Program-made: the position numbers and the translations under genes
DNA from: an uncultured delta proteobacterium
GTDB lineage: Bacteria > Desulfobacterota > Binatia > UBA9968
NCBI GenBank assembly: GCA_963760795.1
Contig: CAVXEP010000018.1
Coordinates: 15,241-79,240 of the forward strand
Length of the DNA stretch: 64,000 bases
Reading direction: 5' to 3'
In this document: positions 37,372-64,000 of the stretch, one piece after another
How positions within the stretch are numbered: the first letter of the stretch is position 1
Layout: every line of letters starts with the position of its first letter
The notes under the pieces: model-generated
Told to the model about the DNA's origin: nothing
What the model saw: only the letters and a program-made list of their open reading frames with translations
Databases searched by the model: none

Positions 37372-37400
37372 CACCCGCAATCGAGCATCCCGGAGAAATT

Positions 37401-42049: not shown

Positions 42050-42120
42050 TGTAGAGCCTCCGAAGTATGCATACGCTTCGGTTATAAGGCTCTCCCGCGC
42101 ACTATGTCAATTAGGCAGAC

Positions 42121-42146
42121 GAGGGCGGACCGGCAAGTCCGCCCTC
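42121..42146 (-). terminator. Perfect 10-bp GC hairpin after the coiled-coil gene
   Basis: gagggcggac-cggcaa-gtccgccctc. No U tract, so this is tentative. Confidence 0.4.
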
Positions 42147-42198
42147 TAATGAAAAGTTTCTGTCACCGGTTGCGATCGCGAAGTCTGAAGATATCCGA

Positions 42199-42754: not shown

Positions 42755-42835
42755 TGTAAGAACCTCCTTGGCCAATTAGACGGCGCGGCCGAGCTAACGT
42801 TAACGAGGCCGCTTTAAAAATCCTTCGGCCGCCGT

Positions 42836-43624: not shown

Positions 43625-43663
43625 AATCTCACAAGGCTCACGGGGCGACGACGATATTCCGGC

Positions 43664-44415
43664 TCAGCTAGCAACCGCGCTGGTGCATGACAAGTCGCTC
43701 TCCTGAATGCCGCAAACCAAAGCAACTTCGTCGCGGTAGAGTTGCCAAATTCTGAGCGCATCCTCCATCACCCGCACCACGGCGCCCCGGCGCAGCGGCA
43801 CGACATGATCCAAGATCGCGTTCCAAGCGGCGGCGCGGTGGCAGTCCTTCCACCTGTCGATGGGCTTTGGTCAGCGCTAAATGCTCCACCGAGAGTCCGT
43901 AATATTTCACCAGGGGATGTTCCTCCAGCGGCGGTGGCGGCTGATTTTTCCTGGCATCGAGCGCGGCTCTTTCAGCGCTCGATCCTTCGACAAAGATGGT
44001 GACGATTGCCGACGCGATATCCCAACCGAAGGACTCTGTCGCGGCGTCGAGAAAATTCACGGTAACGCTGCGCCGCCGGCAACAGCTGGATATTTTGAAA
44101 TCGGCTCAGGTCCATACCGAGGCCGCGGGGATATTCGAGAAAAAGCTCGGGGTGAGGCCGGCCGGCGACCAGGCCGCCGGTTTCTTCTTCGTAGAGATTC
44201 TCCGCCAAGCTGCGGCGAATCTCGGCGATGGGACAGCGAATATAGGATCGCCCAACGAGTATCGGAAAGTCGCGCACGTAGGTGCCATATTCTTGCTCGA
44301 AATGAAAATGCAGCCGATCTCTGGGCACGCGGCCTGAAGTAAAAGCCGGCCAGGCCCAATGATCCTTACGTTCCATCACACCGAGAAGCTGTTCGCGAAA
44401 GGTTTCCCGATTCAT
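43664..44415 (-). pseudogene. PqqC/TenA-like heme-oxygenase-fold 'iron-containing redox enzyme family' protein, two frame breaks
   Basis: GGAGG RBS plus ATG 44415 (MNRETFREQLLGVMERKDHWAWPAF...ENLYEEETG...HPELF). Break about 44053 (T/A run) leads into FLDAATESFGWDIASAIVTIFVEG. Break about 43870 leads into DHRRAAWNAILDHV...AVAS*. Confidence 0.65.
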
Positions 44416-44459
44416 CGAGACCTCCATTACCTATCAGGCTGTTGTCTATTACTACAACG

Positions 44460-44475
44460 AGCAACCTTAGTGCCA
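44460..44475 (-). promoter_or_regulatory. Consensus sigma-54 (-24/-12) promoter TGGCAC-N5-TTGCT
   Basis: The minus strand reads TGGCACtaaggTTGCT, about 45 nt upstream of ATG 44415 and divergent from the enhancer-binding-protein gene. Confidence 0.7.
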
Positions 44476-44778
44476 GCGAATAATTACGAGAAACACTTGT
44501 TTTCGTACCCAACATCCCGGCATCGGCGCGAAGCAATTGGAATGTATCGATGAATCGGGCCGCAGTGCCACAATGCTTATGGTCTGGCGGTAGCCATGCT
44601 GAGCTGTAGTCCGGAAACAAAGCACAATGCAGCCTAGGGGTTCGCCCTGGCTTCACCGTAGTGACGAACTGAGCGAATTATTGCAGACAATTCGATTCTA
44701 TTGTTGCCAGTTTAGCACTTTCGGGTGCAATAGGCCTTTCATTGGCAGATTTTTGCCAACTGTGTTAGGCAGGAAGAA

Positions 44779-46326: not shown

Positions 46327-46428
46327 CAGGTATGATTTTCGCCTCGGGAGACCAAGCGCTGTCGGCGCACCTGGCTCGCCGACACTTCAGTCATGCTGCG
46401 AGAAAGCACCACCCTGTCAATCCGGTGG

Positions 46429-46450
46429 AGCGCGCGACAACCCGCGCGCT
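46429..46450. terminator. GC hairpin between convergent genes (end of the NRPS-strand gene array)
   Basis: agcgcgcg-acaacc-cgcgcgct overlaps the stop of the small basic protein gene. Confidence 0.45.
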
Positions 46451-46689
46451 TAGCCGGCAAGCTTCTTGAGGTTTTCTTTAACCGCCGCCCGTAGCAGCGG
46501 ATTTCGCTTGACCACAGTCGAGTAGGCTTTGCGCGCCGCCGCAGTCTTCGCAGCCGCAGATTTAGCCTTTGACGCTTTCAACAGAGCTTGGACCGCGGCA
46601 TTCAAATCTTTGTTGGAGCTAATCAATTTGCGATTAGCTTTGCGCAATTTCGTCGCCGCCGCTGCCGATAATTTTACACCTTTGCCCAC
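46450..46689 (-). CDS. Small Lys/Ala-rich basic protein (histone H1-like composition), function unknown
   Basis: 79 aa: MGKGVKLSAAAATKLRKANRKL...KASKAKSAAAKTAAARKAY.... Assigned by composition only. Confidence 0.4.
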   Translation of the reverse strand: MGKGVKLSAAAATKLRKANRKLISSNKDLNAAVQALLKASKAKSAAAKTAAARKAYSTVVKRNPLLRAAVKENLKKLAG

Positions 46690-46775
46690 GTTGCACCTCT
46701 TTTGCCGTTGACGTTACATCGTCACACAATACTTCAGATCGACTGCCAATGAAATTATTTTATTCTTTCGCCAAG

Positions 46776-48586
46776 CTAAATTTTCAAATCGGACAACCCG
46801 CCCGCCCGCCATCGGGCTCGCGAAATACCGCTTGCAATTTGTCGAGGTCTCGCCGCGACTCGCTTGTCGCTCCGCAGCTGCGCCACCGGCAGATCCATGA
46901 ACCTTTCCATGACCACCCGCAACGACTCCGCGTAAACCGTCCGGTCACCGATAAAATTGAATGAAGCGGCATACATCGCATGGCCCGTACCGCGAAACTC
47001 GATCAGCGCGCGCTCGCCCTTGAGACCATCGCGATAAAAATCCTCGGCTTGGCAGCCGGCGATCACTGTGTCCCGGGCGCCCTTGAGAATCAGCGTGCGG
47101 ACCTCATGGCGGATGATTCTTCGGCGTCCAAGGGCAGATCTTTTCCGCTGGAAGGCTCCGAGTTTCCTGGCTTCGCCGCGTAGCAGTTCTTTGCCGCCGC
47201 TGCCGGCGGCGAACGCCGTGACATCTTTGCCGGTGAAGCAGCCGCCGCTGTCGCGCTCGATCATGCCCGGCCGCAGTAAAGAACGGGCGACACCATCATA
47301 CAGGCCGAGCACCTGGTTGGCGCGAATCGATTCCAGTTGCCCGCCGCGTTGGCCGGTCGGCTTTGCCGGCGCGATGATCTTGCAGTACCCAGTGGCGCAT
47401 TGGGCGTTTTTTAAAAATGGCGAACTGGCCGCGCACTGGCGCGCCACCGTTGCGTTGCCGGAGGCGCTTTTCTCCTCGAGAGTTAGATAGTGGCCGATCA
47501 CCAACGCCGCATCGATTTGCCAGGCGAAGTCACCGGCGTAAGGCTTGACGCCGGATTCCGGCGCGCCGGTAAACTGCAGCGTTTTAATTGCCGTATAAAA
47601 TTCCCGCGGGAAGTGCGGACGCGATACGGGCATCAGCCGACTTGAGCAAGTCGTCATAATGATCGGTGACGAAATCCACCGAGCCGAACTGTTCCTCGAT
47701 TTCACTCAGGAGCTTTGCCATCCTATCGCTGAGCAAATTGGCTTGTTCGACATCGATAAAACAAAAATTATAGCTGCTGCGAGCGTCCACTAGGGCGCTC
47801 ACCTCGCCGAGCTTTTCCGTGGCTGTGCCCAAAAACGTTTGCACCGGCACCGGGAGCTTTCGATCGCGGCAGTCACAAGGCTGCCCGGCCGGCGAACGGT
47901 AAGTCGTCAAGATCAATTTCAAGTTTGCCGCGGTCATGTGGGCGCGGGCGGCATGGGTGTCGCGATCTCGCACCACCGGCGCGGACAAGATCAGCGTCTT
48001 GACTTTTTTGGAGCCGAATCTAGCCGCGTACAATTGCGCCGGCAGCGCGCCCCAACTATGCGAGTAGATCGCGTCCCAGGGTTTGCGGTTGAGCACCGCC
48101 TTGCGGATTTTTTCGATGTCGTCGGCGACGTATTCGGCCGCGCAGGAAACGGTCGAACTTGTTGCTCGCCGGGATCACGCTGCGGCCGCCGCCGCGCAGG
48201 TCGAAATAAACTACATTATGATGCGCCTCCAGATGGCCAAGCATACGACCCATCTGGTTGACGTTGTCGACCAGCGCGCCGGGCCCGCCGGCAATGAATA
48301 AAATATTCTTGCGCTCGGGACGGGCGAGGTTAAACCCCTTGCCGAAAAAATAATACAAGTCGAACTTACAAGGATCGTCGTGACAATCGATCTCCTTGGG
48401 CATCGCCATGTCGTCGGGCAAGAGCCGGACATCGGCGATTTTGCGCATTAGTTGGCCGCTGCGGCTGGCGGGCCGGGTACTCATCTCCGCCGGTGTCCAA
48501 TGATAATTCTCGCCGCTCTCGCCGGCGTAGGCGGAACCCGCGACAAGTAAAACTGCGATGACACTCAAAGCAAACCGTCGCTGCAT
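46776..48586 (-). pseudogene. Signal-peptide alpha/beta hydrolase (proline-iminopeptidase-like core with large insertion), two frame breaks
   Basis: GGAGGAGG RBS plus ATG 48586 (MQRRFALSVIAVLLVAGSAYA). ILFIAGGPG, VVYFDLRGGGRS. Break about 48135 leads into AEYVADDIEKIRK...YSHSWGA (nucleophile). Break about 47640 leads into ...ILKGARDTVIAG...FRGTGHAMY. Confidence 0.6.
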
Positions 48587-48600
48587 TGCATCCTCCTCCA

Positions 48601-51600
48601 TTATGAGCCGTCAGACACCATGTGAAAATTCGCTATATCGCCCTCAGGCCGCGCCACCGCGGCGCCGAGCATCGCCATGAATCCATCGAGCAACTGTTGG
48701 GCGTGGCACTCATCGAACATAGCTGCAGCGGTAGGTGACAGTTACCGTCAACTTAGTTGCCAGCTCGCGGAACTCGAAACTCAGCTCTGCCGGCGTAAGC
48801 GCCACCTCCGGGTCCGCCGCCCGATCCCCGCCATTGGACCAATGCGCAAATCTGACACCAGCGGCTTCCTCGGATTCGTCAACCATGCGCCGATAGTTGA
48901 CCATGACCTGATAAAGGGAGATCGGCTCACCGCCCTCGCCCTGCAAACTACGGCTGAGTTCGGCGATGGGCAGATCTTGATGAGCAAAGGCTTCCTGCGC
49001 TACGGATCGGGTCTGTTGCAAAAGATCGTCGAACGACATCCGCGGCGCTACGCGGGTTCGCAACACCACTGCATTGACGAAGTAGCCGATCAGATTTTCG
49101 CGTATGCGGCTGTTGGCGATTTGCCACTAAAGTGCCGATGCAAAGATCGCGGCACCCGGTCAAACGGTAGAGCCACAAGTTTAACGCCGCCACCAGCACG
49201 ACAAACGGCGTGGTTTTCCGCGCGCGCGCCAATTCGTGAATTGCCGCGCTGACCGCCGCTTTCATATCCATCGACAGCCGTCCGCTCCGCAGTGTCAATT
49301 TTTTTCGCCGTTTGCCGACCGCAGGAAACTCGATCGTTGGCAACGGACCGGCCAACCGCTTCTGCCAAAAGTTGAGTTGATCGTCGAATCCGCCGGTATC
49401 CAACATGCGCCGCTGCCATCGACTGAAATCGACGAATTGGTACGGCAACGCCGCGACCGCCGCGGGCTCGCCTTGAGCAAAGGCTTTGTAAAACGCCACA
49501 AGCTCGCGGCGAAACAGCCGCATCGACCATTGATCGGCGATCATATGATGCATTGTCACCAGAAAAATATGTTCCGCCGCGGCCAACCGCACCAAAGTGA
49601 CCCGGAACGGCGGCCCCTTGTCCAAGTCAAAAATCTCCTGGGCATCCTCGTGGGAGATCCGCTGCAAGTTCGCTGCTGCGCTTTGGCTCTGGCTTCGCCG
49701 CCAAATCGAATCGCCTAAGCGGTACGCGCATTCGGCGCCGGACGACTTGGACGAGCTGGCCATGGCGCTCGTTTGAAGACCGTGCGCAACACCGCATGGC
49801 GCGCCATGATCTTTTCAATGGCACGCCGCAGCGCCGCCTGGTTCAACCGGCCGCTCAGTCGGTACCCGTACGGGAGGTTCAGAAAATCCGCCCCCGACAA
49901 CAGGTCATCCATGCGCCAGAAAAGGTCCTGAGCCGATGACACCGGTAACGCACCGCCTTGTATGGCTCGACGGCAGGATTGGCGGCAGCGCCGCGCGCTC
50001 GCCTTTTTCGATCCGAGCAGCGACGCCGGCAACCGTCGGCGCATCGAAAAACTCGCGCACGGAGAACTCGGCGCCAAATGCCGCGCGCAGCCGCGCGACT
50101 ATCTGCATCGCCAATATCGAATGGCCACCGAGCTCGAAGAAGTCATCGTCGACGCCGATCCAGTCTAAACCCAGCCCTTCGCGCCAGATCGCGGCAACTT
50201 TCTCTTCGGTTTCGTTGCGCGGACCCACCAGCTTCGATTCAGCCGCGCGCTGGTGCGCCTGTGAGCTCCGGCAGCGCGCGTCGATCGATTTTGCCGTTGG
50301 GCAGAAGCGGTATGCGCTCCAACCGAACAAACCCCGCCGGTACCATGTAAGCCGGCAGCATTTGCTGGAGATATTCGCGCAGCTCACGGTCGGTCGGCGG
50401 CATCTGAGGAAACAATGTACGCCACCAACGACTGTCGCCAATTTTGCATTGGTCGCATCGCACCGCTGGCATCGGTCTGCAGCGGTCACAACACAGTCGT
50501 CGATCCTTGGATGACTGCGCAGCGCCGCTTCGATCTCGCCCGGTTCAACCCGCTGGCCGGCGAATTTGATTTGATTATCCGCGCGGCCGAGATATTCGAG
50601 ATTGCCATCGGCGCGGTAACGCGCCAAGTCGCCGGTGCGAAACAGCCGGGAGCCCGGATCGGCGCTGAACGGATTGACGACGAATTTTTCCGCGGTCAGT
50701 TCCGGCCGGCGCCAATAGCCCCGCGCCAAGCCGTCGCCGCCGACATACAGTTCGCCGATGACGCCGACTGGCACGGGCTGGCGCTGCGCGTCCAGAAGAT
50801 AACACCGTGGTGTTCGAAATCGGCCGGCCGATGGCCACCGTCTTCCCCGAAGTCCGGCCGTCATATTCAAAACAGCTTGCGTCGGCGGCGACTTCCGCCG
50901 AACCGTAGAGATTGAGCAACACCGCCTTGGGATGACTCTTGCGAAACCGCTCTGCGAGTTCAGTGCTCAGCGCCTCGCCGCTGCTGGTCCAGAGCTTTAG
51001 CCGCGGCAATTTAACCGTCAGATTGACGCCATCGTCGAGAAAGGCTTTTAGCAGCGACGGCACCAAGACAACACGGCTCACCCGCCGATGGGCGAGAAAC
51101 TCGATCAGCAAATGGGGATCATGGGCGGTGTCATCGTCAGCGATGGTCAGAGGAACGCCTTGCAGCAGCGGTCCGAATATTTCCCACACCGAATCGACGA
51201 AACTCAATGACGTCTTGCTGCAACAGACCTCGCCAGGACGAAACGGATAGCGCCGCCACATCCAGTCACAACGATTGACCACGCCGCGATGAAGCCCGAC
51301 CACGCCTTTAGGCAAACCGGTGGAACCTGAAGTGTAGATGAGATAAGCGGCGCTTGCCGCCCTGGACAGTACTGTGGGATTCTCATGACTCTGGCCGGCG
51401 AATAGATCGGCATCGTCGAGACAAACCAGCGAAACATTCGCCTGGGAAATTGTGCCGGCGAGCTCTCGCTGGGTGAGCAAAAGGTCGATTTCAGCGTCAG
51501 CGACCATGAATTCCAAGCGCGCGTGCGGATAACTTGGATCGAGTGGCACATAAGCAGCGCCGGCTTTGAGAATCCCGAGCATGCCCACGACCATCTCAAG

Positions 51601-53342
51601 CGACCGCGCGACCAGCAGCCCGACGGGCTTGTCGGCGCCAACGCCACGACCACGTAAAAAATGCGCCACGCGATTGGCATGCCGGTTGAGTTCGGCGAAG
51701 GTCAACGTTGACGATTGGAACTCTAGGGCAACGGCGTCGGGCGTGCGCGCGACTTGGGCCTCGAAGAGCTCGTGAATGCAGCTCTGGCTCGGATAAGCTG
51801 CCGCGCTGTCGTTCCATTCGACTAAGCATACGCCGCCGCTCGTTGGCACCGAGCAATTCTAACGCGCCGATAGCGCGATCGGGATTAGTGACAATATCAT
51901 CGAGCAGCGGCGAAAAATGTCCCGCCATGCGCTCGATGGTCGCGGCGTCGAACAAATCGCTAGGCGTACTCGAAATAACCGAGCAACCGGCCGCCGCGCT
52001 CGCGCAAATAAAGCGAGAGATCGTACTGCGCCGTAGCGTTCTCCACTTCCACCGGGTCGATATCTAATCCTTCCGGCACCGCCCAACGGTTCGGCGTGTT
52101 CTGCAAAACAAAGAAAGCTTGAAACAACGGCTGGCGATTGAGCTCCCGGCGCGGCTTGAGTTCCTCGACCAGTTTCTCGAACGGGATAGCCTGGTGCGCG
52201 TAAGCATCGAGACAAACTTCGCGCACCCGCCGCAAATAGTCGCGAAAGCTTGGCTGGCCGCTCAGATCGCCGCGCAGAATCAAAGTGTTGACGAAGAAGC
52301 CGATCAGCCCTTCGCATTCGGCGTGAGGACGATGGGTCACCGCGGAACCCACGGCGATATCGTCCTGGCCCGAGTAACGATGCAGCAAGAGCTGAAACGC
52401 CGCCAACAGCACCATGAACTGCGTCGCTTTCTCCTGCGCAGCCAGGCGATTGAGCGACGCCGTTAACGATGGTGAAAAATTTATCGGGTAGCGTCCACCG
52501 CGAAAACTTTGCCGCACCGGCCGGGGCCGGTCGGTGGGCAGATCGAGGGCTGCCACGCCATCCAGCTGTTTACGCCAGTACAGAAGTTGCTCCTGAAGCG
52601 GCGCCGTCTCCAAACGGCGGCGCTGCCAAATGGCAAAGTCACCATATTGAATCGGCAATTCGGCCAAGGGGGATACTTGTCCAGCGGCGAAGGCCACGTA
52701 AAGTTGCCAAAGTTCGCCGACGAGAATTCCCATGGACCAGGCATCGGCGACCAAATGATGGGTAGTTAGAAGCAAAATATGCTCAGCATCGTCGACTTGC
52801 AGTAAGCGCGCGCGCAGCAGTCGCCCCGCCGCCAGATCGAAGTAAGTTTCCGCTTCCAGCTTAATGCGCCGGCGCAGTTCGTTGTCACGTCGGGCGCCGG
52901 AAAGCCGACGCAGATCTGTTACCCGCAGCAACCTTGTGGCGTCGGCAACCGGAACTTGCATCGGTATGCCGTCGATCGTGCAAAACCTCGACCGGAGCAC
53001 CTCATGGCGCCGGACAATCTCGTTGAGACTCGCGGCGAGAGTCTGGCGATGGAGCGGACCGCGTAGGCGGAACCCGCGGCATAAGTTGTAAACCGACCTT
53101 TCCGGCTCCAGTTGCGTCAAGAACCACAGACGTTCTTGGGCCAACGACAAAGGTGCCTCTACGGCTGTCCTGCGGCGCGGAACGGACGGCGCAACGCTTA
53201 AAGCACCGGCGCGAAGCCTCGTTAGCAGCTCGGCTTTTCGCGCGGCGATGGCTGCGCGCAGCTCATCATGCAGCGCGCCCTTGGGTGCGTTGATGCGCAG
53301 CTTATCGCCATCGGCGGATATCGCGATATCGAGCGCACGCAA
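48601..53342 (-). pseudogene. NRPS gene C: docking domain-C-A-T-C (module 4 plus terminal condensation domain), many frame breaks as assembled
   Basis: TubC-type docking sequence (FIAQLRALDIAISADGDKLRINAPKGALHDELRAAIAARKAELL). C: LSLAQERLWFL, HHLVAD 52743-52760. A: [63 protein letters not shown]: FFELGGHS (Ser 50118-50120). Terminal C: HHMIAD 49533-49550, ending ...FDECHAQQLLDGF...HMVSDGS* at 48601. The fragments are ORFs 51960..53342, 51596..51955, 50575..51849, 49905..50870, 50239..50472, 49715..50077, 48948..49763 and 48710..49069. Confidence 0.8.
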
Positions 53343-53365
53343 CTGCGCGATGAAGTCCTCGGTAT

Positions 53366-56300: not shown

Positions 56301-59300
56301 GCACGCCACAGCGGCGCCTGTGCCAAATCATAGGGCGTGCGAGCAACCAGGTCCGCCAGCCGACGCCATTCCGATTCCGCTTGGTCCTTGCGGCAAACCG
56401 GACAAATCGGTGATCGGCAGCGCAATCGTTATCTCCGCGACAATTTCCTGGCAGGGTTCGCCGTCAACTTCTTTAATGGCGGTGCGCAGCGCCTCGTGGC
56501 GCGCAGTGACCAGATTCAACCCCTGCGCCAATGCTGCAACGTCGAGATCGCCGTCGATGCGAAATACCGCCGGTATATGGTAAGCAGCGAGATCGCCGTC
56601 AAGTTTTTGCAAGAACCACAAACGGCGCTGGGAAAATGACAGCGGCAAATTGCCGCCACGCGCGATTCGCGCCATCGGCACCACGCCCGTCCCTCTCTGA
56701 TTACGGCGCAATATGGCAATTTCATCGGCGAGCCCGGCGACGGTGGGCCGTTCAAAGATTTTCCGCAGCGCCAGATCGACGTTAAAATGGCCGCGCAGGC
56801 GCGCCACCACGCGGGTCGCGAGCAGCGAGTGGCCGCCCAGCTGGAAAAAGTTTTCATTGCACGCCGAGCCGGTCGCCGTTTCAACACTTCGCGCCAAACC
56901 TGCGCCACCAGCTCTTCGATCTCGTCGCGCGGCTCGATAAATTCACTGGGCAGCGCTGGTTCGCGGTCCATCCGGAGCAGGCAATGCCCGGCGGTCGACT
57001 TTACCGTTGGGCGTCAGCGGCAAGGCTGGCAAAGACATGAAAACAGCCGGCACCATGCAGCTGGGCAACTTAGCGCTCAGGTAGCCACGCAAATCATTTT
57101 CCGCCAACGTCACGCCGTCTCGGGGCACCAAGTAGGCGACCAACTCACTCTCGCCCTCGCCGCCGGTGGCCCCGGCGACGACCGCCGCATCCCGCACCGC
57201 TGGATGCAGTCGGAGAACGCTCTCAATCTCGCCCAATTCGATGCGGTAACCGCGCAGCTTCACCTGGTTATCGGATGCGGCCGAGGTACTCCACGGTGCC
57301 GTCGGCCTGATACCGAGCCAGGTCTCCAGTGCGGTAAATCCGTGCACCGGGTTCACGGCTAAAGGGATTCGCGATAAAGCGCTCCGCGGTCAAGTCCGGC
57401 CGATTCAAATAGCCGCGCGCCACGCCGGCGCCGCCGATGTAAAGCTCGCCGACCACGCCGATCGGCACCGGCTGCATTACGCCGTCTAGAATATAGAGCT
57501 GGGTATTCGCCAGGGGCCGGCCGATGGGAACGGTAGCGCCAACACCCTCGACGCGATGCATCGTCGACCAGATGGTGCTCTCGGTGGGGCCATAGAGATT
57601 CCACAACTCGCCGCAGCCACGTAAGCGATCGGCCAGAGTCGCGCGGGCAGCGCTTCGCCGCCGCAGAGAATTTTAAATTCGGCCATCGCCCTGCCAGCCG
57701 GCTTCGAGCAGCAGACGCCAGGTCGACGGCGTCGCCTGCATCGTCGTCGCGCCGGAACTCTTCAACCGTTGCGCCAAACGCTCGCCATCGCGCGCCTCGT
57801 CACGGCTGGCGACCACTAATTTGCCGCCCGTGATCAACGGCAACAAGATTTCCGCCGCGGCGATATCGAAAGAAATCGTCGTCACCGCCAGCCAGACATC
57901 GGCTTTGGCTGATTTTCAAATGGCGCTGCATTGAGAGCAGGCAATTGACCAACGAGCGCTGTTCGATCTCGACGCCTTTAGGATGGCCGGTCGACCCCGA
58001 AGTGTAAATTACGTAGGCGAGATCGCGCGGTGAAGACCCGCGCTTAATATTCTCGCTGCTATGGGTTTCGATATTTCGTCGCTCACGATCTAATAAGATG
58101 ACGATGGGGTCGAGAATGGAGGATTGAGGATCGAGGATCGCTATCATCCATTTTCCATCCTCGATCGTCGGCGATACTCTTCTGGCTAATCAGCACCGAC
58201 ACCTGCGCGTCGTCTAAAATAAATTCCAGCCGTTCTCTCGGATATTCCGGGTCGAGCGGCAAATAGGCCGCGCCGGCTTTGAGCACGGCGAGCAGTGCAA
58301 CGACCATGTCGACCGAGCGCTCCAGGCATAGGGCGACGACGCAGTTTCGCCCGACGCCAAGTTTTGTTAAATAGCGCGCCAAGCGGTTGGCGCGGCGATT
58401 CAGTCGGCCGTAGGTCAAACGCTCCGGGCCGCACTCAAGCGCCAGCGCGCTCGGCGTGCGCTGCGCTTGGCGTTCGAACAATTGATGCACACAAGCCTTC
58501 GGTACAACCGCGCGCGTTCGGTTCCACTCGATCAACAAACGGCGGCGCTCCTTTTCGCCCATCATCGGCAGTCGGGCAATCGACCGATCTGGCTCGGCGA
58601 CGATCGCGTTCAGCAGCGTGAGGAAATGTTGCAGCATGCGCGCGATGGTGTCGTCGGCGAATAGTGACCTGCGATATTCAACAAAGCCGCTGAGCCGGCC
58701 GTCGCGTTCGCCCAACGCCAGACTGAGATCGTATTTGGCCCCGCCGCTGTCGCAGTCGATGGCCTCGCTGCGAATGCCGTGCAGGCTCAATTCGGCGGGC
58801 AACTGGTTTTGAAACGTGAACAGCGTCTGGAAAATCGGCGTGCGGCTGGGATCGCGCGATTGCTTCAACTCATCGACCAGCCGCTCGAACGGCAGCTCCT
58901 GATGCGCCAGCGCCTCTTGCAAGTTAGTCGCGCAGCCTTGCCAGCAGTTGGGTAAATGTCGGATCGCCGGCGAGATCGCTGCGCAGCGCCAGGGTATTGA
59001 CGAACGAGCCGATGAGATTCTCCAGCGCTGGATGGTCGCGATTGGCCACCGGGAAACCGACAACGAGATCGTCCTGCCGCGTGTAGCGCCAGAGCAGGAC
59101 GTTGAACGCCGCCATCAAGGTGACGAACAGCGTGTTCGACGCCCTGGCGCTCAGTTCTTTGAGCCCGGCGGTGAGCGCTTTGTCGAGTATGATTTTCTGC
59201 CGCGCGCCTTTTAAGCTCGCGGCTGCCGCCCGCGGCTTATCCGCCGGCAGATCGAGAACCGGCAACACGCCGCCCAACTGTTTTTTCCAATAGGCCAGTG

Positions 59301-60016
59301 GCGCCGCCAAGGCTGCATCGTCGAACCCCCGGCGCTGCCAAAGCGCGTAGTCGCCATACTGCACCGGCAACTCGGCGAGGGAAGCGGCTTCGGCTGCGCC
59401 GCCGTTGGCGTAAAGCGCTTCGAGTTCACGGTAAAACAGATCGAGCGAGCGGCCATCGCACACCGCCTGGTGCGCGACAAAAACGAAAACATGGTCTTGG
59501 CGATCGAGTTGAAGCAGCGTAACGCGCAGCAGCGGTTCGGCGCTAAGATTGAAACAATGGCCAGCTTCGGCGCCCACCCGCAGGCCGATTTCCTCGTCAC
59601 GGAGATTGACGCGCGATATGGCGCAAATCGAACATTTGCAGCGCCGGCGCGGTCAACGGCAAGACCTGCTGCAGCGGCCGATCGCCGTCATTCGCCAACA
59701 CTGTGCGCAGCACTTCGTGGCGCTGCACGATACGCTGCACGCAACGGCTGAGCAGCGTGACGTCGAGCGCCCCCTTGAGACGCCAAGCGCGGGCGACGTT
59801 GTAAACCGCACTGGCCGGCTCCCACTGCTGCAAAAACCACAAGCGCTCCTGAGCGAATGACAGCGGCACGACTGCGCCGCTGGGGCGCGGCGTGATTGCG
59901 CTCGCAGCACCAGCGTCTGAATCAGTACTTTTGTCCCGCAGCCGCGCCAGTAAACGCAGCTTGGCCGCGCCCAGCGCGGCGCCGGACTGGGGCTTGGAGT
60001 GGCGAGTCGTGTTCAT
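53366..60016 (-). pseudogene. NRPS gene B: C-A-T-C-A-T (modules 2 and 3), many frame breaks as assembled
   Basis: ATG 60016 (MNTTRHS). C: LSFAQERLWFL, RHEVLRT, AHQAVCDG 59452-59475. A2: LTYGRLN, LKAGAAYLPLDP, YVIYTSGSTGHPKGV, FDIAAAE, NLYGPTE, GELYIGGAGVARGY, YRTGDL, KLRGYRIELGEIE, PLTPNGKVDRRAL. T2: FFQLGGHS (56826-56828). C: LSFSQRRLWFL, HHIIADG 56231-56251. A3 (Lys2-like): YIAFTSGSSGEPKAV, SGLAYSHLHRDLF, FYGATETQRA, YRTGEL, NIRGFRVELAEIE. T3: FFRLGGHS (53543-53545). Stop at 53366. Confidence 0.8.
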
Positions 60017-60020
60017 TCTA

Positions 60021-61952
60021 TTAATCGTCACCCAGCGCCCGGTAAATCTGCTCGGGCGCCATGCCATCGATCTCGAGCATGAGTCGCGCGCTTTCCGCCG
60101 CTGCGCCTGGGCAACGTTCTTGAGCCGTGATCCATGCCGCGAGCTGCGCCACGGTCGGCGTGGCAAATAGTGTTTTCAATGGCTGGGTCAAGGCAAACAG
60201 TTGGTTCACCCGTGCGACAATTGCGTTGGCCAGGAGCGAGTCGCCGCCAAGGGCGAAGAAATCGTCAGCGCTGCCCAATTCCTCCAACTGCAAGACCTCG
60301 CGCCAAAGCTGCACCAGGACGGTCTCCAGTTGGTTCCGCGGCGCGGCATAAGGAACATCGAGGGCGGCGCGCGAATGGCGCGCCTCCGGCAATCCACGCC
60401 GGTCGATCTTGCCGCTGCGGGTCATCGGCAGGCGGGCCAATTGAACAAACGCGGCGGGAATCATGTAATCGGGTAATTTTTCTTGCAACGCGCCGCGGAT
60501 TTGACTCACGTTCATGGCGGTACCGGCCCGCAAGACGACGTAGGCCAATAACCGCGCGCCGCCATCGCGCTGCTGCCGTGCCACCACCGCCGCTTGTACG
60601 ATGCCGACGATCTCGAGCAAGGCGATTTCAACTTCGGCAAGCTCGACCCGGTGGCCTCTAATTTTGGCTTGCAAATCTTTTCTGCCGACATGAACCAGAC
60701 AACCATCCGGCCGCAAATAACCTAGGTCGCCGGAAAGAAATATGCGCGCGTCGCTGCCGGCGGGATCGGTTAAGAACTTGGCTTGGGTCAATTCCGGACG
60801 ACGCCAATAGCCGCTGGCGAGAAAGCGGCTCTTTACCGCGATTTCACCGACAGTGTTTGCCGCCACCGGCTTTCCCGCTTCGTCCAGCACGGCGATTTCG
60901 TAACCGTCCAAGGCAAAGCCAACCGGCACCACCGGTTCTTCGACGATGCTATTCTTGTCGATGAAAAAATAGCTGGCGGTCTTGGTCTCGCTGATGCCAA
61001 GCCGGTTGACCAACCGGCAGCCGTCGATGAAGTGTTGCTTGAACAACTCGATGTCGGATTGAAACAGCGCCTCGCCGCCGAGATGAACCAAGCGAACACT
61101 AGGGAAAGTGGCGTGGTGGTCGACGTTGCGCAGCGCGTGGCGAAACACACTGGCGACACAAGTGAAGAACCGTGATCTCATCACCGATCAGCCAGTCGGC
61201 CAAACCGGCCAGTCCCTCTTCCTTGAGTTCCAACAGACACAGCGCCGCGCCATTGAGCAATCCCAGGAGCGCATCGGAAGTGGCGCCGACGTTGTGCGAG
61301 CGCAGCAGGCTGATGCGATCCGACGGTGTAATTGCCAACGCTTTGGCCTTGACCAGAATGCTATGCAACTCGCTGCCATGGTCCGACATGACGCCTTTGG
61401 GCTCGCCGGTGGAGCCGGAAGTGTAGTTGATATAGGCGATGGCGCTGGGCGCGATCGCCAACCCGAGATTGCTGTCGGCGAGATCGTCCTTGAGCGCGTC
61501 GAGATTGATCACGATAACATCGCCCCCGGCAAGCTCACGGGCGCAGCGATAGTGCTCGCTGTCGGTGACGATCGCGCGCGCGCCCTGCGTCTTCAATCAG
61601 CCGGGCGGCCCGCGCTTGCGGTAGTTTGTCGTCGATCTGGACAAACGGCCGGCCGGTCTTGAGCACCGCCAGGTTCGCTGTGATCAGCGCGCTTCCGTGT
61701 TTGAAGAGCAACGCGATCGGTTCGTCGCCTGCCGGCGATGCAGTCAAGATCGCACGGCCCAGCCGGTTCGCCGCGCGATTCAGTTGATCGTAGGTCAGCG
61801 CCTGATTCAAAGTTTTCAGGGCGAGGCGCGCGCCATGGAGCGCCACCTGCTGTTCGAAGCGGCCGGTGAGCGATTGCGCTGCCCCAGAGATACCGCGGGA
61901 ACAGATTCTCAGACGATCGTTTTCGCTGTGGTTTGGCCAGCCGTCGAGTCAT
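60021..61952 (-). pseudogene. NRPS gene A: loading module A-T, about three frame breaks as assembled
   Basis: ATG 61952. LTYDQLNRAANRLG; YINYTSGSTGEPKGV 61390-61434; GISETK (A5 variant); GEIAVKS..LASGYW; LSGDLG; KIRGHRVELAEVE; T domain FFALGGDS (Ser 60237-60239). TAA at 60021, 4 nt before gene B. Confidence 0.8.
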
Positions 61953-61994
61953 GAGCGCTAAAAAACTTTCGGGGATTTTTTCCGGCGGCGACGG

Positions 61995-64000
61995 CTAACG
62001 AAACCGAGTTGAATCACTTTCGCCCATAGTCAGGAAGCCAGTCATCGCCAGAGCGGCGAAAAGTTCCCGCGCGGCGCTCGACTCTTGGCGCGCCTGCTCA
62101 AGGTTTCCCGCCACCCCATAGACTTGGGCAAGCGCCGCATGACAATGCGCCTGGAGCGGCCGCATCGCCATATCACTGGCAAGACTCAACGCTTCGCGAT
62201 AGTGCCCCTCGGCCTGCTCGATTTGTTTAACGGTGAGGCGCATGGCGATATCGCCGCGCAGCTTGAGCGCCAAAGCGCCATGACCCGGCTCTTTGTGTTG
62301 TTTGGATAACTCACAGGCACGATCCGCCAAGACCATCGCTTCGTCGATGCGATTGGCGCTCAAGTAGGCGTCGCTCAGCCAAGCGAGATTAAGCGCCAAG
62401 AACCCAGCCCGGCCCACCGCGGCGGAATCTTCGATGCTTTGCTCGAGTAGCCGCAACCCTTCAGCCTGACGGCCGGCACGGACATAAGCGTAACCCAGTC
62501 GCGGCGCAACCAAGGGCACATAAATCGCGATATGTTTCTCCTCGCACAGAGTCATCGCCCGCTCCAAGACTGGTATCGCTTCGTGAAAGTCACCCTTGAA
62601 AAGATACAGAAAACCGAGACTGGCGTTGACGTGAATCTGACTCACCGGATGATTCGCCTCATCGGCGATCTGCACGCCCTCGGCGCCGCGCTCCAGCCCT
62701 TCGGCAAAATCCCCGGTCATCGCCAAGGATTGCAACAAATGGCTGCGAAAGATCACCGAAAGAATCACCGTGGTGCCGAAACGTTGGTGGCGCAAAGCCC
62801 CCTCGACGCTTTGCATGCCGCTGCGCAGCACCGTCGCGGCGCGCCCATACTGGGCGACTTTGTTGTAAGCCACTCCGGTGTAGTAACTGGCCACCGCCCG
62901 CAATGCGGTGTCCTCTTGGGTGGCCGGCATCGCCAAGGCACGCTGGCCGGCTGCGATCGCCCGCTCGGGATCGCCGATCAAACCGTAATAACTATTTTGA
63001 AAATTGAGCACCCGCGCCAAGCGCCGGCTGTCGCCGATCCGTTCGGCGAGCGTCTCGGCTTGCGTCAGATGGTCACCGACCCGCGGTAAATCGCCGCGCA
63101 GAAACAGCACGTTGCGGCAGTCCAGGTGCAGATCGATGCGCTGCTCAAGTCGCGCCGCGGTTTCCGGCAGATGGCCGAGCGCTTCAAAGGCGCGGGTATA
63201 GTTATCAAAGGCCTCGCCGAAAGCCGAATGGCTCATCGCCTTGGCGCCCGCTTGGCTCATATAGTCGGCGGCTTTTTCCCATAACTCGCCGCGAAACGCG
63301 TGGTCCGCGAGCGCTTCAATCTCGTCGAGCGGATTGCCGCCGCTTAGCCGCTCGATCGCCGCCGCAGTCTGCGCATGCAGCGCTGTCTTGCGCTCGTGCA
63401 ATAATGCGCCGTACACCACTTCGTTGATCAACGCGTGGGTAAATTTGTATTCCAACTTGGGATATAAGTTGCTTTCATAAAGAAACTCGCCGGTTTGTAA
63501 ATGGCTCAAGGCGCCGCGCAGTTCTTCTTCCGGCAATCCCGTGATGCCATGGAGCAGCCGCTCGGGAACGATCATGCCGATGACCGCGGCGCTTTGCAGT
63601 AGTTGTTTCTCCAGCGCCGGCAAGCGATCGATGCGATCGGCGAGAACCGTTTGCACGGTGTTGGGAATACGAATGTTCTCGACCTGCACCCCCGGGCGAT
63701 AGTTTCCCTTCGCGCCAATCAGAATGCCCGAAGCGGTCAAAGAGCGCACGCTCTCTTCGACGAAGAACGGGTTACCATCCGTCCGGCTGATCAGCAGCTG
63801 TTTGACCGTCGCCAGATCGCCATGAGCGCCCATCAGCGCATCGAGCAACTCTTCCGCGCCTGCCGCCGTTAATGGATTGAGACGTAAACGGCTGTAGTGC
63901 TCTTTATTGGCCCATGCGTGGCTGTAGCCCGGCCGGTAATTGACCACTAAGCAGATCCGCCCGCTCGGCAGCCGATCGACTAAAGCGTCGAGAAACGCTT
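61995..64000 (-). CDS. STAND-type AAA ATPase with C-terminal TPR repeats (regulator-like), 5' end outside the window
   Basis: The frame stays open to position 64000 (...KRFLDALVDRLPSGRICLVVNYRPGYSHAW...). NPFFVEE motif, followed by about 450 aa of TPR-like helices. This resembles the C-terminal two thirds of adenylate-cyclase/LuxR-associated AAA+TPR regulators. Confidence 0.75.
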   Translation of the reverse strand, partial: AFLDALVDRLPSGRICLVVNYRPGYSHAWANKEHYSRLRLNPLTAAGAEELLDALMGAHGDLATVKQLLISRTDGNPFFVEESVRSLTASGILIGAKGNYRPGVQVENIRIPNTVQTVLADRIDRLPALEKQLLQSAAVIGMIVPERLLHGITGLPEEELRGALSHLQTGEFLYESNLYPKLEYKFTHALINEVVYGALLHERKTALHAQTAAAIERLSGGNPLDEIEALADHAFRGELWEKAADYMSQAGAKAMSHSAFGEAFDNYTRAFEALGHLPETAARLEQRIDLHLDCRNVLFLRGDLPRVGDHLTQAETLAERIGDSRRLARVLNFQNSYYGLIGDPERAIAAGQRALAMPATQEDTALRAVASYYTGVAYNKVAQYGRAATVLRSGMQSVEGALRHQRFGTTVILSVIFRSHLLQSLAMTGDFAEGLERGAEGVQIADEANHPVSQIHVNASLGFLYLFKGDFHEAIPVLERAMTLCEEKHIAIYVPLVAPRLGYAYVRAGRQAEGLRLLEQSIEDSAAVGRAGFLALNLAWLSDAYLSANRIDEAMVLADRACELSKQHKEPGHGALALKLRGDIAMRLTVKQIEQAEGHYREALSLASDMAMRPLQAHCHAALAQVYGVAGNLEQARQESSAARELFAALAMTGFLTMGESDSTRFR

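What the first reader, a model, noticed from the sequence alone, without database searches (positions are those of the whole stretch)
46450..64000. 17.5-kb single-strand array: STAND/TPR regulator, four-module NRPS ending in a terminal C domain (no TE), secreted hydrolase, Lys/Ala-rich protein
Stitching the minus-strand fragments gives:
- A1-T1 (60021..61952), then a 4-nt gap.
- C-A2-T2-C-A3-T3 (53366..60016).
- Docking-C-A4-T4-C5 (48601..~53360).

All A-domain core motifs, four phosphopantetheine Ser sites (about 60237, 56826, 53543, 50118) and four xHxxxD(G) condensation motifs are visible. I see no TE, R, E or MT domain. T-to-C spacing leaves no room for an E domain.

The line ends in a full-length C domain (HHMIAD, 49533-49550). 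That implies release by condensation with a free nucleophile or by cyclisation.

The NRPS stop TAA overlaps an ATG (TAATG at 48599-48603). 15 nt further on, a GGAGGAGG-preceded ATG opens an alpha/beta hydrolase with a clear signal peptide. The upstream regulator ends 43 nt before gene A, and a GC hairpin (46429-46450) closes the array.

I cannot tell from sequence alone whether this architecture or its product is already described.
Basis: partly seen in the sequence, partly recalled or inferred. Interest (0 to 1): 0.75.

Follow-up and report, generated by a model that had tools for sequence, protein, structure and literature searches.

The report
Orphan soil-bacterium peptide synthetase with paired secreted hydrolase
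This is a real four-module non-ribosomal peptide synthetase operon from an uncultured soil bacterium (Binatia); its many frame breaks are sequencing-assembly errors, and it belongs to an undescribed conserved family in which a special terminal condensation domain is almost always followed by a secreted hydrolase and a tiny basic protein.

Summary

The roughly 36 frame breaks are almost all single-base insertions private to this deposited 128-kb assembly. Five sister loci are broken at other positions; one is a Nanopore-only Flye/Medaka MAG and the other four look like products of the same pipeline. Short-read relatives carry intact genes. dN/dS is 0.2-0.35 in every domain. The operon is therefore functional in nature, not a pseudogene.

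New here: the cluster belongs to a conserved cassette, apparently undescribed.
- In 59 of 63 metagenome loci, the rare ~600-aa extracytoplasmic S33-like hydrolase lies directly after an NRPS gene ending in this terminal-C clade (motif HHxxxD[Q/H]WS).
- An ~80-aa basic protein usually follows the hydrolase.
- The third A domain has an invariant non-canonical code, (N/S)HRHFGFRAK. The last A domain is usually beta-Ala-like.
- The docked subunit appears to start at a conserved AUA codon.

The product, the releasing nucleophile and the hydrolase's role remain inferred.

The parts
61995..64000 (-). C-terminal 667 codons (TPR region) of a ~1070-1150-aa zinc-ribbon / class III nucleotide cyclase / AAA_16 (STAND) / TPR protein. 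It is cut by the window edge. Stop codon TAG at 61997-61995.
   Evidence: Pfam TPR_12 and TPR_MalT in the window part. Full-length sister genes carry DZR, Guanylate_cyc, AAA_16 and TPR. Homologues lie near the cassette, but at other positions, in L129, L148 and L154. dN/dS 0.1-0.19. No indels in this part.
60021..61952 (-). Gene A: loading module A1-T1 (642 aa after repair). Ppant Ser codon at 60239-60237. Specificity code GA(S)THGRTAK lacks Asp235.
   Evidence: Pfam AMP-binding, AMP-binding_C and PP-binding. Three private 1-nt insertions at 61901, 61582 and 61164. Sister L002 has this gene intact at 642 aa. The code is conserved in 6 of 6 sister loci.
53366..60016 (-). Gene B: C2-A2-T2-C3-A3-T3 (2211 aa after repair), ending in the acidic docking tail ...GGGEREEIEI. 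A2 is Gly-like (DIAQLGLIWK). A3 has the code SHRHFGFRAK (no Asp235). Ser codons at 56828-56826 and 53545-53543.
   Evidence: Pfam on the whole repaired protein finds only 2xC, 2xA and 2xT. About 15 private insertions. Sister L001, 97% identical in DNA over this part of the operon, has an intact 1931-aa ORF here. The A3 code is invariant in 10 of 10 distant family loci.
48601..53369 (-). Gene C: TubC_N docking domain-C4-A4-T4-C5(terminal), ~1583 aa after repair. A4 is beta-amino-acid-like (VDWVTSLADK). T4 Ser codon at 50120-50118. Terminal-C motif HHMIADQWS at 49550-49524. Stop TAA at 48603-48601.
   Evidence: Pfam. The orthologous gene is an intact ORF of 1581-1665 codons in at least 12 short-read loci, and 1568 aa in JGI 3300056388. 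The terminal-C clade motif HHxxxD[Q/H]WS occurs in 37 of 45 loci. dN/dS of C5 is 0.19-0.29.
53366..53369 (-). ATAG junction: the TAG stop of gene B overlaps ATA, the apparent non-canonical start codon of gene C. An AGGAG lies 8 nt upstream, inside the EREEIE codons.
   Evidence: ATAA or ATAG occurs at the same position in 14 of 15 distant loci and 6 of 6 sister loci. L148 has ATGA there. No in-frame ATG, GTG or TTG lies upstream of the docking domain.
46784..48586 (-). Extracytoplasmic alpha/beta-hydrolase, 599 aa after repair. Signal peptide MQRRFALSVIAVLLVAGSAYA|GE. GGPG oxyanion motif. Ser(HSWGA)-Asp(ARDTV)-His(GTGHAM) triad. A large helical cap of about 280 aa.
   Evidence: Pfam Abhydrolase_1 and Hydrolase_4. 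The triad and GGPG are invariant in 35 family members. 26 of 35 members have signal-peptide or lipobox-like N-termini. AF2 pLDDT 85.9. Foldseek top hits are Hip1, Pro-iminopeptidases, DPP7 and TnmK1 at TM 0.34-0.48. Only 95 representatives among 1.84e9 proteins. The gene lies next to a terminal C in 59 of 63 loci.
46450..46689 (-). Small basic Lys/Ala-rich protein, 79 aa. GTG start with an AAGAGGTG Shine-Dalgarno sequence. It is the third member of the conserved cassette.
   Evidence: Intact and 76-100% conserved in 6 sister loci. An ORF of 65-110 aa follows the hydrolase in 64 of 65 loci, most with the motif MGK(S)G.KL..K.RK..R..I..NKDL.AAV..RNPLL. No Pfam family matches, and JGI's 'Spy/CpxP' label is not supported.
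46429..46450 (-). GC-rich hairpin (8-bp stem, 6-nt loop) right after the small ORF. No T-run follows it.
   Evidence: Sequence. Not called by the terminator scan. Present in W and L001, degenerate in L004, absent in L002 and L003.
46785..61901 (.). Stretch carrying about 36 frame-disrupting assembly indels. Nearly all are single-base insertions outside homopolymers.
   Evidence: Private to this assembly when compared with five sister loci. Similar insertions occur at 41963-44058, and there is a split hydantoinase at ~13.45 kb. The truncated ORFs are on record for the deposited 128,182-bp contig.

Best explanation
The locus is a functional operon of an uncultured Candidatus Binatia soil bacterium, although it is mis-assembled here. 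It encodes a three-subunit, four-module NRPS.

**Assembly line (shown, from domain order and codes).**
1. A1-T1 loads a starter that is probably not a standard alpha-amino acid, because Asp235 is absent.
2. C2-A2-T2 adds Gly.
3. C3-A3-T3 adds an unusual unit. Its family-invariant pocket, (N/S)HRHFGFRAK, is basic and lacks Asp235.
4. The chain passes to the third subunit through an acidic tail and a TubC_N docking pair.
5. C4-A4-T4 adds a beta-Ala-like residue.

**Release and maturation (inferred).**
- No TE or R domain exists, and the paired hydrolase is extracytoplasmic. The terminal C domain, a distinct clade with HHxxxD[Q/H]WS, therefore most likely off-loads the chain. It would condense the chain with a nucleophile that is not carrier-bound, or less likely act by cyclisation or hydrolysis.
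- The product is then exported. The obligately co-encoded secreted or lipoprotein S33-type hydrolase acts on it outside the cytoplasm, in maturation (prodrug-like trimming) or in turnover.
- The co-conserved ~80-aa basic protein has an unknown accessory role.

**Frame breaks (shown).** The ~36 frame breaks in the window are consensus errors of a long-read assembly.
For: **Domain order and absence of other domains:**

**The frame breaks are artefacts.**
- The indels are private to each of six assemblies.
- L001 is 97% identical in DNA over the first 8.9 kb of the operon and 99.7% at the gene B/C junction, yet has an intact 1931-aa ORF where the window has about 14 insertions.
- Removing only the window-private indels restores all ORFs.
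- Indels also hit neighbouring non-NRPS genes and a hydantoinase 33 kb away.
- Sister locus L005 is a Microflora Danica MAG, and those MAGs are Nanopore-only, assembled with Flye and polished with one Medaka round (PMC12313526). L001-L004 carry the same contig_N naming, so I infer the same pipeline.
- Short-read relatives have intact genes of 1568-1665 aa.

**Purifying selection:** third-position bias of 0.50-0.59 and NG86 dN/dS of 0.2-0.35 in every domain.

**A-domain codes:**

**Terminal C.** The catalytic HH..D is intact. The nearest solved relatives are ordinary bacterial C domains. The clade motif and its obligate pairing with the hydrolase are shown.

**Hydrolase is extracytoplasmic and catalytically complete:**

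**Precedents.** Bacterial terminal C domains release with free amines in RXP NRPSs (PMC9872161). A C domain with a non-Gly motif (HQxxxDM) uses a free amine in streptothricin biosynthesis (PMC11546977).
Against: - No chemistry was tested. The acceptor nucleophile is unknown, and the terminal C could instead hydrolyse or cyclise.
- The A1 and A3 substrates cannot be predicted. My reading of a basic pocket as binding an acidic substrate rests on memory of microcystin codes. I could not confirm it in the literature.
- The beta-Ala assignment of VDWVxSLADK is also from memory (one search found no text).
- The hydrolase's target could be unrelated to the peptide, although 59 of 63 linkage makes that unlikely.
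- No exporter, PPTase or MbtH gene lies in the array. A PPTase follows the cassette in one distant member.
- The insertion-only, non-homopolymer, patchy error spectrum of this assembly is unusual and remains unexplained.
Confidence: 0.6

Rival explanations
1. The NRPS and hydrolase genes in this genome are true pseudogenes. The cluster is decaying and makes no product in this organism.
For: There are more than 20 frame switches in the window. The truncated ORFs are what is deposited publicly. Indel density at 41.9-62 kb is far higher than at 1-41 kb.
Against: - Every indel is private to this assembly.
- Each of five sister assemblies has different indels.
- A sister locus 97% identical in DNA over the first 8.9 kb of the operon (99.7% at the gene B/C junction) lacks them.
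- A 20:1 insertion bias is the opposite of the deletion bias usual in bacterial gene decay (my own knowledge).
- dN/dS is 0.2-0.35 throughout.
- The same kind of insertion hits adjacent unrelated genes and a hydantoinase.
- At least one sister locus (L005) is a Nanopore-only assembly with a single polishing round, and the other four look like products of the same pipeline.
Confidence: 0.05
2. The alpha/beta-hydrolase is the missing release enzyme. It would act as a trans-acting thioesterase that hydrolyses or cyclises the T4-bound chain, and the terminal C would be structural or a recruitment platform, like the glycopeptide X domain.
For: The hydrolase gene is translationally coupled to the NRPS, through the TAATG overlap and an SD 15 nt further on. 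It is linked to the terminal C in 59 of 63 loci. The catalytic triad is intact. The line has no TE.
Against: - 26 of 35 family members carry a signal peptide or lipobox, and the family has conserved cysteines. The enzyme is therefore outside the cytoplasm, where the NRPS works.
- There is no Thioesterase (PF00975) match. The fold neighbours are secreted or cell-envelope S33 peptidases such as Hip1.
- The terminal C keeps HH..D and is under purifying selection, unlike the HRxxxD X domain.
Confidence: 0.07
3. The terminal C domain releases the chain by hydrolysis or by intramolecular cyclisation, not by capture of an external nucleophile.
For: Terminal C domains that cyclise (fungal C_T) or hydrolyse (IvoA) are documented (PMC11546977). 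Replacing the motif Gly with the bulkier Gln or His could alter or block the acceptor site.
Against: The nearest solved relatives are canonical bacterial elongation C domains (Txo1, Txo2, PvdL, TycC). No fungal C_T structure such as TqaA appears among hits at E<=1e-10. The C-terminal residue varies across the family (beta-Ala, Gly, Ala, Pro-like, Gln-like). That fits a domain whose specificity lies on a constant acceptor better than one forming a ring of fixed geometry. Neither argument is decisive.
Confidence: 0.2

Closest known systems
Rhabdopeptide/xenortide-like (RXP) NRPSs of Xenorhabdus and Photorhabdus
   Same: These are multi-subunit bacterial NRPSs held together by N- and C-terminal docking domains. 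They have no TE. The last module ends in a terminal C domain that releases the chain by amide formation with a free amine (PMC9872161).
   Different: RXP modules begin with starter C domains, use hydrophobic L-amino acids with MT domains, and act iteratively. They have no obligately paired secreted hydrolase or small basic protein. Here the motif is HHxxxD[Q/H]WS, and two A domains lack Asp235. Sequence relatedness of the terminal C domains was not tested.
Streptothricin ORF18 stand-alone C domain (HQxxxDM)
   Same: It is a C domain with a non-canonical residue in place of the motif Gly. It condenses a carrier-bound chain with a free, non-carrier-bound amine (PMC11546977).
   Different: ORF18 is free-standing and has an aminoglycoside acceptor. 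Its motif differs, and I made no direct comparison.
Fungal C_T macrocyclising domains (for example TqaA) and the IvoA hydrolytic C_T domain
   Same: These are terminal C-type domains that replace a TE for release.
   Different: They form a fungal clade with a blocked acceptor channel. The terminal C here is closest to canonical bacterial C domains by sequence.
S33 alpha/beta-hydrolase peptidases with cap domains: M. tuberculosis Hip1 (Rv2224c), Streptomyces tripeptidyl aminopeptidases, prolyl aminopeptidases
   Same: They are secreted or cell-envelope enzymes. They share the alpha/beta core with a GGPG oxyanion motif and a Ser-Asp-His triad, and they carry a large cap inserted after strand 6. 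They are the best Foldseek hits. The weak NCBIfam and PDB hits are to Pro iminopeptidases.
   Different: Sequence identity is only 11-16% and TM only 0.34-0.48. The protein scores far below the curated Pro-iminopeptidase cut-offs (45.7 against 167.65 bits). The ~280-aa cap is not matched. The family is defined by its NRPS linkage.
Prodrug-type NRPS pathways with a dedicated periplasmic peptidase (colibactin ClbP, xenocoumacin XcnG)
   Same: The concept is the same: an NRPS product is matured outside the cytoplasm by a strictly co-encoded exported hydrolase (my own knowledge).
   Different: Those peptidases are membrane-anchored S12 beta-lactamase-fold enzymes, and their NRPSs start with Cstarter-A(Asn)-T-E. 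None of these features is present here.
TubC-type beta-hairpin docking domains
   Same: Gene C starts with a TubC_N domain (PF18563, 55.9 bits). Gene B ends in a short acidic tail...EREEIEI.
   Different: None in kind. The unusual point is that the docking-domain gene appears to start at AUA.

Membership tests
Modular (type I, linear) non-ribosomal peptide synthetase | A, T (PCP) and C domains with their core motifs, in co-linear module order | tested here: met
   Pfam AMP-binding, AMP-binding_C, PP-binding and Condensation in the order A-T|C-A-T-C-A-T|C-A-T-C. GG(D/H)S serines and xHxxxD motifs located.
Modular (type I, linear) non-ribosomal peptide synthetase | Open, translatable reading frames | tested here: inconclusive
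   Not met in the window as deposited: more than 20 frame switches. Met after removing ~36 assembly-private indels, and met in short-read orthologues. Reads are needed to settle this copy.
Modular (type I, linear) non-ribosomal peptide synthetase | A phosphopantetheinyl transferase is available | not tested
   None in the array. A PPTase gene follows the cassette in a distant member. The rest of the genome was not available.
NRPS released by a terminal C domain (bacterial Cterm type, e.g. RXP) | A C domain is the last domain, and no TE or R domain is in the line | tested here: met
   Gene C ends 457 aa after T4 in a full-length Condensation domain. No PF00975 or NAD_binding_4 hit anywhere.
NRPS released by a terminal C domain (bacterial Cterm type, e.g. 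RXP) | Catalytic His motif retained and the domain under selection | tested here: met
   HHMIADQWS. The clade motif occurs in 37 of 45 loci. dN/dS 0.19-0.29.
NRPS released by a terminal C domain (bacterial Cterm type, e.g. RXP) | Chain release by condensation with a free amine or alcohol | not testable with these tools
   Needs in vitro or heterologous chemistry.
Fungal C_T macrocyclisation domain | Sequence or structural membership of the C_T clade | tested here: not met
   The best PDB sequence hits are the bacterial C domains of Txo1, Txo2, PvdL and TycC. No C_T structure such as TqaA appears at E<=1e-10.
Type II / trans-acting thioesterase | Cytoplasmic ~250-aa Thioesterase-family (PF00975) protein | tested here: not met
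   The protein is 599 aa with a signal peptide. Only Abhydrolase_1, Hydrolase_4 and Abhydrolase_6 hit. 26 of 35 relatives are signal-peptide or lipobox-like.
S33 prolyl-aminopeptidase / tripeptidyl-peptidase (Hip1-like) hydrolases | Alpha/beta-hydrolase fold with Ser-Asp-His triad and GGPG oxyanion motif | tested here: met
   S177, D505, H535 and GGPG100-103 are invariant. The AF2 model has pLDDT 85.9. Foldseek top hits are Hip1, F1, DM3 and DPP7.
S33 prolyl-aminopeptidase / tripeptidyl-peptidase (Hip1-like) hydrolases | Score above the curated family thresholds | tested here: not met
   TIGR01250 scores 45.7 against a cut-off of 167.65. TIGR01249 scores 34.8 against 259.75. The only PDB sequence hit is 1azw at E=4e-4.
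STAND (AAA_16)-TPR signalling protein / pathway regulator | NTPase (AAA_16) domain plus TPR sensor | tested here: inconclusive
   Only the TPRs lie inside the window. AAA_16, Guanylate_cyc and DZR are on record for the full-length sister proteins.
STAND (AAA_16)-TPR signalling protein / pathway regulator | DNA-binding output domain, or a demonstrated regulatory link to the operon | tested here: not met
   No HTH family is listed for the window part or the sister proteins. The only evidence is co-occurrence near the cassette at variable positions.
ClbP/XcnG-type prodrug activation system | S12 peptidase plus an N-acyl-D-Asn-forming starter module (Cstarter-A(Asn)-T-E) | tested here: not met
   The hydrolase is S33-like. 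The starter is A-T only, with a non-Asn code, and there is no E domain.

The most novel reading that the evidence does not exclude
The three conserved genes may form a new off-loading and maturation system: the terminal C clade with HHxxxD[Q/H]WS, the exported S33-like hydrolase, and the ~80-aa basic protein with a conserved MGK N-terminus. In this reading, the terminal C domain transfers the NRPS chain onto an amine of the small protein (the N-terminal Gly or Lys3), or onto an envelope-bound amine. The extracytoplasmic hydrolase later liberates or trims the peptide. That would be NRPS-to-protein conjugation, analogous in logic to scaffold-peptide (PEARL) or carrier-protein (LysW) pathways. 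A conserved AUA start would set the stoichiometry of the last subunit.
Probability: 0.06. Interest if true: 0.85.

Novelty: new variant of a known kind. Interest (0 to 1): 0.5.

Why it matters
Binatia are abundant, uncultured soil bacteria with no characterised natural products. This cluster is not a strain-specific oddity. It is a conserved cassette recovered from dozens of independent soil metagenomes, which suggests a molecule with an important, lineage-wide role.

Three features define a testable new release and maturation logic for TE-less NRPSs:
- the near-obligate pairing of a specialised terminal C domain with a rare exported hydrolase and a tiny basic protein;
- an invariant A-domain pocket lacking the alpha-amino-binding Asp;
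- an apparently conserved AUA start codon for the docked subunit.

There is also a practical lesson. Long-read MAG assemblies can shred NRPS genes with private indels, so BGC mining on such data needs frame repair by comparison with relatives.

Tried and rejected
**Dropped ideas.**
1. Reading 46300-46800 showed that it is the separate 79-aa ORF.
2. The pseudogene hypothesis is rejected on private indels, dN/dS and intact orthologues.
3. I asked whether the indels were introduced into the window copy itself. They were not: the truncated ORFs are on record for the deposited 128-kb contig.
4. I looked for a sigma-54 promoter in front of the NRPS operon and found none. The only perfect match (44460-44475) precedes the neighbouring haem-oxygenase-like gene, so the conserved GAF/sigma-54 activator probably serves that operon.
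5. No C domain is of the dual E/C type. All four have the RHE(A/V)LR C2 motif and no second HH motif (read from the sequence).
6. A programmed -1 frameshift fusing genes B and C is unlikely. There is no slippery heptamer, a docking pair is present, and L148 has ATGA at the site.
7. JGI's 'Spy/CpxP' label for the small protein has no Pfam support.

- Literature searches for the specificity codes returned nothing.
- PDB searches with A1 and A3 gave only generic amino-acid A domains.
- None of the 77 more distant GTDB-genome loci fetched with the dock-C4 query contained the hydrolase or the regulator.

Full report
**1. What is in the sequence**

On the minus strand between 48.6 and 62 kb, the stop-to-stop segments switch frame more than 20 times. 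Most of the rest of the window has long intact ORFs. Pfam on the individual fragments gives AMP-binding, PP-binding and Condensation pieces. They tile in the order A-T / C-A-T-C-A-T / TubC_N-C-A-T-C.

- Ppant Ser codons: 60239-60237, 56828-56826, 53545-53543, 50120-50118.
- His motifs: AHQAVCDG (59475..), HHIIADG (56251..), HHLVADA (52760..), HHMIADQ (49550-49530).
- The 4-nt gap between genes A and B.
- TAATG at 48599-48603.
- The ATG at 48586, preceded by GGAGGAGG.
- A ~42-nt gap after the upstream TPR protein.

The 'Lys/Ala-rich protein' is a 79-aa ORF at 46689-46450 with its own Shine-Dalgarno sequence. The hairpin at 46429-46450 exists, but it has no T-run and is conserved only in the nearest relatives.

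**2. Why the frames are broken**

The closest relatives are five loci. Four come from ENA assemblies with contig_N names (L001-L004). The fifth is the GTDB representative MAG MFD09730.bin.4.339 (L005). They are 83-97% identical in DNA and have the same gene order. According to the Microflora Danica paper, its MAGs, of which L005 is one, are Nanopore-only Flye assemblies polished with one round of Medaka (PMC12313526). L001-L004 share that contig naming, so I infer the same pipeline.

All six assemblies have frame breaks in the NRPS, but at different positions. A multiple alignment shows that these are private 1-nt indels.

The window has about 36 such events between 46785 and 61901. They have three odd properties:
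- Nearly all are insertions.
- 22 of the 26 scored are not beside an identical base.
- All are absent from essentially all five relatives.

L001 is 97% identical in DNA over the first 8.9 kb of the operon and 99.7% at the gene B/C junction. It has an intact 1931-aa ORF where the window carries about 14 insertions.

The same kind of insertion occurs in the adjacent haem-oxygenase-like, CCG and amidohydrolase genes at 41963-44058. A hydantoinase at ~13.45 kb is also split, and it is 681 aa in relatives. The errors are therefore not NRPS-specific.

Deleting only the window-private indels restores stop-free ORFs of 642 aa (gene A), 2211 aa (gene B), ~1583 aa (gene C) and 599 aa (hydrolase).

Substitutions between the window and its relatives are concentrated at third codon positions (0.50-0.59). 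Nei-Gojobori dN/dS is 0.2-0.35 in every domain, including the terminal C (0.19-0.29) and the hydrolase (0.21-0.27). Short-read metagenome orthologues carry the last NRPS gene as an intact ORF of 1568-1665 codons.

The truncated ORFs of the window are on record for a deposited 128,182-bp NCBI/ENA contig. The errors are therefore in the public assembly.

Conclusion: this is an assembly artefact, not gene decay. I cannot explain the insertion-only, patchy spectrum without the reads. There are no indels in the 1.55-kb sigma-54 activator gene or in the 2-kb regulator part.

**3. Anatomy of the repaired proteins**

Gene A is A1-T1. Gene B contains exactly two C, two A and two T domains. Gene C is TubC_N-C-A-T-C. 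No TE, R, E, MT, KR or Cy domain is present.

I extracted specificity codes by alignment to GrsA-PheA. My recalled reference sequence reproduces DAWTIAAICK at the published positions. The codes are:

| Domain | Code | Reading |
|---|---|---|
| A1 | GA(S)THGRTAK | no Asp235 |
| A2 | DIAQLGLIWK | 9 of 10 to the Gly code |
| A3 | SHRHFGFRAK | no Asp235; basic pocket |
| A4 | VDWVTSLADK | Asp shifted to 236; shared with cyanobacterial VDWV(I/V)SLADK domains |

The beta-Ala assignment for A4 comes from my own knowledge. All four codes are conserved in the six sister loci.

None of the C domains is of the dual E/C type. They carry the canonical RHE(A/V)LR motif.

The terminal C has its catalytic HH..D, but Gln replaces the motif Gly. 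Its nearest solved relatives are ordinary bacterial C domains (Txo1, Txo2, PvdL, TycC), not fungal C_T.

Gene B ends in an acidic tail...GGGEREEIEI, and gene C begins with the TubC_N docking domain. They are therefore separate docking subunits.

**4. The hydrolase**

The repaired 599-aa protein has these features:
- a Sec signal peptide: MQRRFALSVIAVLLVAGSAYA|GE;
- a GGPG oxyanion motif;
- a Ser (HSWGA), Asp (ARDTV), His (GTGHAM) triad;
- a cap of about 280 aa.

By sequence it has almost no solved relative. The only hit is 1azw at E=4e-4.

An exhaustive HMMER search with its C-terminal half found only 95 representatives among 1.84 billion proteins. In 35 full-length members, the triad, the GGPG motif and several cysteines are invariant or nearly so. 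Of those 35, 26 have signal-peptide-like or lipobox-like N-termini.

An AlphaFold model built on that alignment is confident: pLDDT 85.9, pTM 0.89. Its best PDB neighbours are capped S33 enzymes, at TM 0.34-0.48:
- M. tuberculosis Hip1;
- prolyl aminopeptidases (tricorn F1, DM3);
- DPP7;
- TnmK1 and TnmK2.

The protein is therefore an exported S33-like serine hydrolase with a novel cap. It cannot be a cytoplasmic trans-thioesterase.

**5. A conserved cassette**

Context look-ups for distant hydrolase homologues (35-41% identity) each showed an upstream gene ending in a C domain and a downstream ORF of about 80 aa.

One 27-kb JGI contig shows the cassette clearly. Its gene order is:
- an intact 1568-aa C-A-T-C gene;
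- the hydrolase;
- an 82-aa ORF;
- a PPTase;
- a convergent GAF/sigma-54 activator.

A scan of JGI metagenome contigs with the hydrolase profile returned 80 loci. The tallies are:
- **Terminal C upstream.** Of 63 loci with at least 400 nt upstream, 59 have a C domain ending just before the hydrolase. In 58 of them the best match is this window's terminal C, at 33-81% identity.
- **Clade motif.** The terminal-C motif is HHxxxD[Q/H]WS in 37 of 45 scorable loci. The internal C4 motif is HHxxxDAWS.
- **Small ORF downstream.** A same-strand ORF of 65-110 aa follows the hydrolase in 64 of 65 loci. Most share MGK(S)G.KL...K.RK..R..I..NKDL.AAV...RNPLL and about 25% Lys+Arg. No Pfam family matches it. 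JGI's 'Spy/CpxP' label is unsupported.
- **Domain order.** Longer loci show the same order...A2-T-C3-A3-T | dock-C4-A-T-Cterm. The cyclase-STAND-TPR protein often lies nearby at variable positions.
- **A-domain codes.** The A3 code (N/S)HRHFGFRAK is invariant in 10 of 10 loci. The last A domain varies: VDWV.SL(A/G)DK in 17 of 27, otherwise Gly-, Ala-, Pro- or Gln-like.

Names attached to close relatives point to Candidatus Binatia. I found no paper describing such a cluster. Public names for the hydrolase are only 'hypothetical protein' or the generic 'pimeloyl-ACP methyl ester carboxylesterase'.

**6. Mechanism**

*Shown:*
- a co-linear four-module line with docking between subunits B and C;
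- no TE or R domain;
- a selected, clade-specific terminal C;
- an exported, catalytically complete hydrolase and a small basic protein, both genetically locked to that C domain.

*Inferred:*
- The chain is X1-Gly-X3-(beta-Ala-like). It is off-loaded by the terminal C, most likely onto a nucleophile that is not carrier-bound. Precedents are the RXP terminal C domains that use free amines (PMC9872161) and streptothricin ORF18, with an HQxxxDM motif and a free amine acceptor (PMC11546977).
- The variable C-terminal residue, set against the constant terminal C, suggests that the conserved element is the acceptor.
- The hydrolase then acts on the exported product, in maturation or turnover.
- Hydrolytic or cyclising release cannot be excluded.

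**7. Extra observation: a conserved AUA start**

The gene B stop and the first codon of gene C's docking domain overlap as ATAG (53369-53366). The same ATAA or ATAG occurs in 14 of 15 distant short-read loci and in all six sister loci. An AGGAG lies 8 nt upstream, and no in-frame ATG, GTG or TTG is available. The one exception, L148, reads ATGA at the identical position. This indicates a conserved AUA initiation codon, probably used by termination-reinitiation.

**8. Verdict**

The observation and interpretation are sound. The frame breaks are artefacts. The cluster is an uncharacterised member of a conserved, previously undescribed variant of terminal-C NRPS systems. The interest is moderate. 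The product and chemistry are unknown, but the cassette is well defined and testable.

Noticed in passing
window 53366-53369 (minus strand); also L093, L095, L099, L110, L125, L127, L129-L131, L136, L144, L148, L153, L154, L162: The docked NRPS subunit (gene C) appears to start at a conserved non-canonical ATA codon that overlaps the upstream stop (ATAG or ATAA). The SD AGGAG lies inside the conserved EREEIE tail codons. A single locus, L148, has the canonical ATGA at the same position.
   Followed up: partly
window 41963-61901, and ~13450: The deposited assembly carries about 43 private single-base insertions against about 2 deletions, mostly outside homopolymers. They are distributed patchily: none in 44779-46326 or 61995-64000. 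A hydantoinase A gene is split at 12080-13492 / 13440-14126, whereas it is 681 aa in relatives. The cause of this error spectrum is unexplained.
   Followed up: partly
window 44460-44475 (minus strand): A perfect sigma-54 -24/-12 promoter, TGGCACTAAGGTTGCT, lies ~30 nt upstream of the haem-oxygenase-like gene (43668-44427) and divergent from the GAF/sigma-54 activator (44779-46326). The activator therefore probably controls that neighbouring operon, not the NRPS.
   Followed up: partly
window 48601-62000 compared with L001, L002 and L004: Synonymous divergence between sister loci is mosaic. Against L004, dS is ~0.04 in genes A and B but 0.15-0.34 in gene C. L001 is 99.7% identical at the gene B/C junction. 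The L002 hydrolase has dS 0.64. This suggests recombination among co-occurring Binatia strains within the cluster.
   Followed up: no
window 53880-53910 (A3 domain, between motif A8 and the A10 Lys): A low-complexity insert, ...PESDNPKSQIQNPKFD..., varies in length among sister loci. It is absent in L001 and L003 and longer in L002. It is a variable surface loop in the C-terminal subdomain of A3.
   Followed up: no
L068 14615-16210 (Aetokthonos hydrillicola CCALA 1050): The nearest A-domain relative of A3 outside the family (43% identity) has the code DPRHFSFQAK. It shares the R239/H278/F299/F322/A331 core but keeps Asp235. Its substrate, if known, could hint at the A3 substrate.
   Followed up: no
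window 12080-14126, 37368-38333, 40867-41991; JGI 3300056388 contig: Broader synteny is shared between the window and a distant cassette-bearing contig: hydantoinase, an NMT1-like binding protein and an amidohydrolase. This is consistent with the cassette being vertically inherited within one lineage and not mobile.
   Followed up: no
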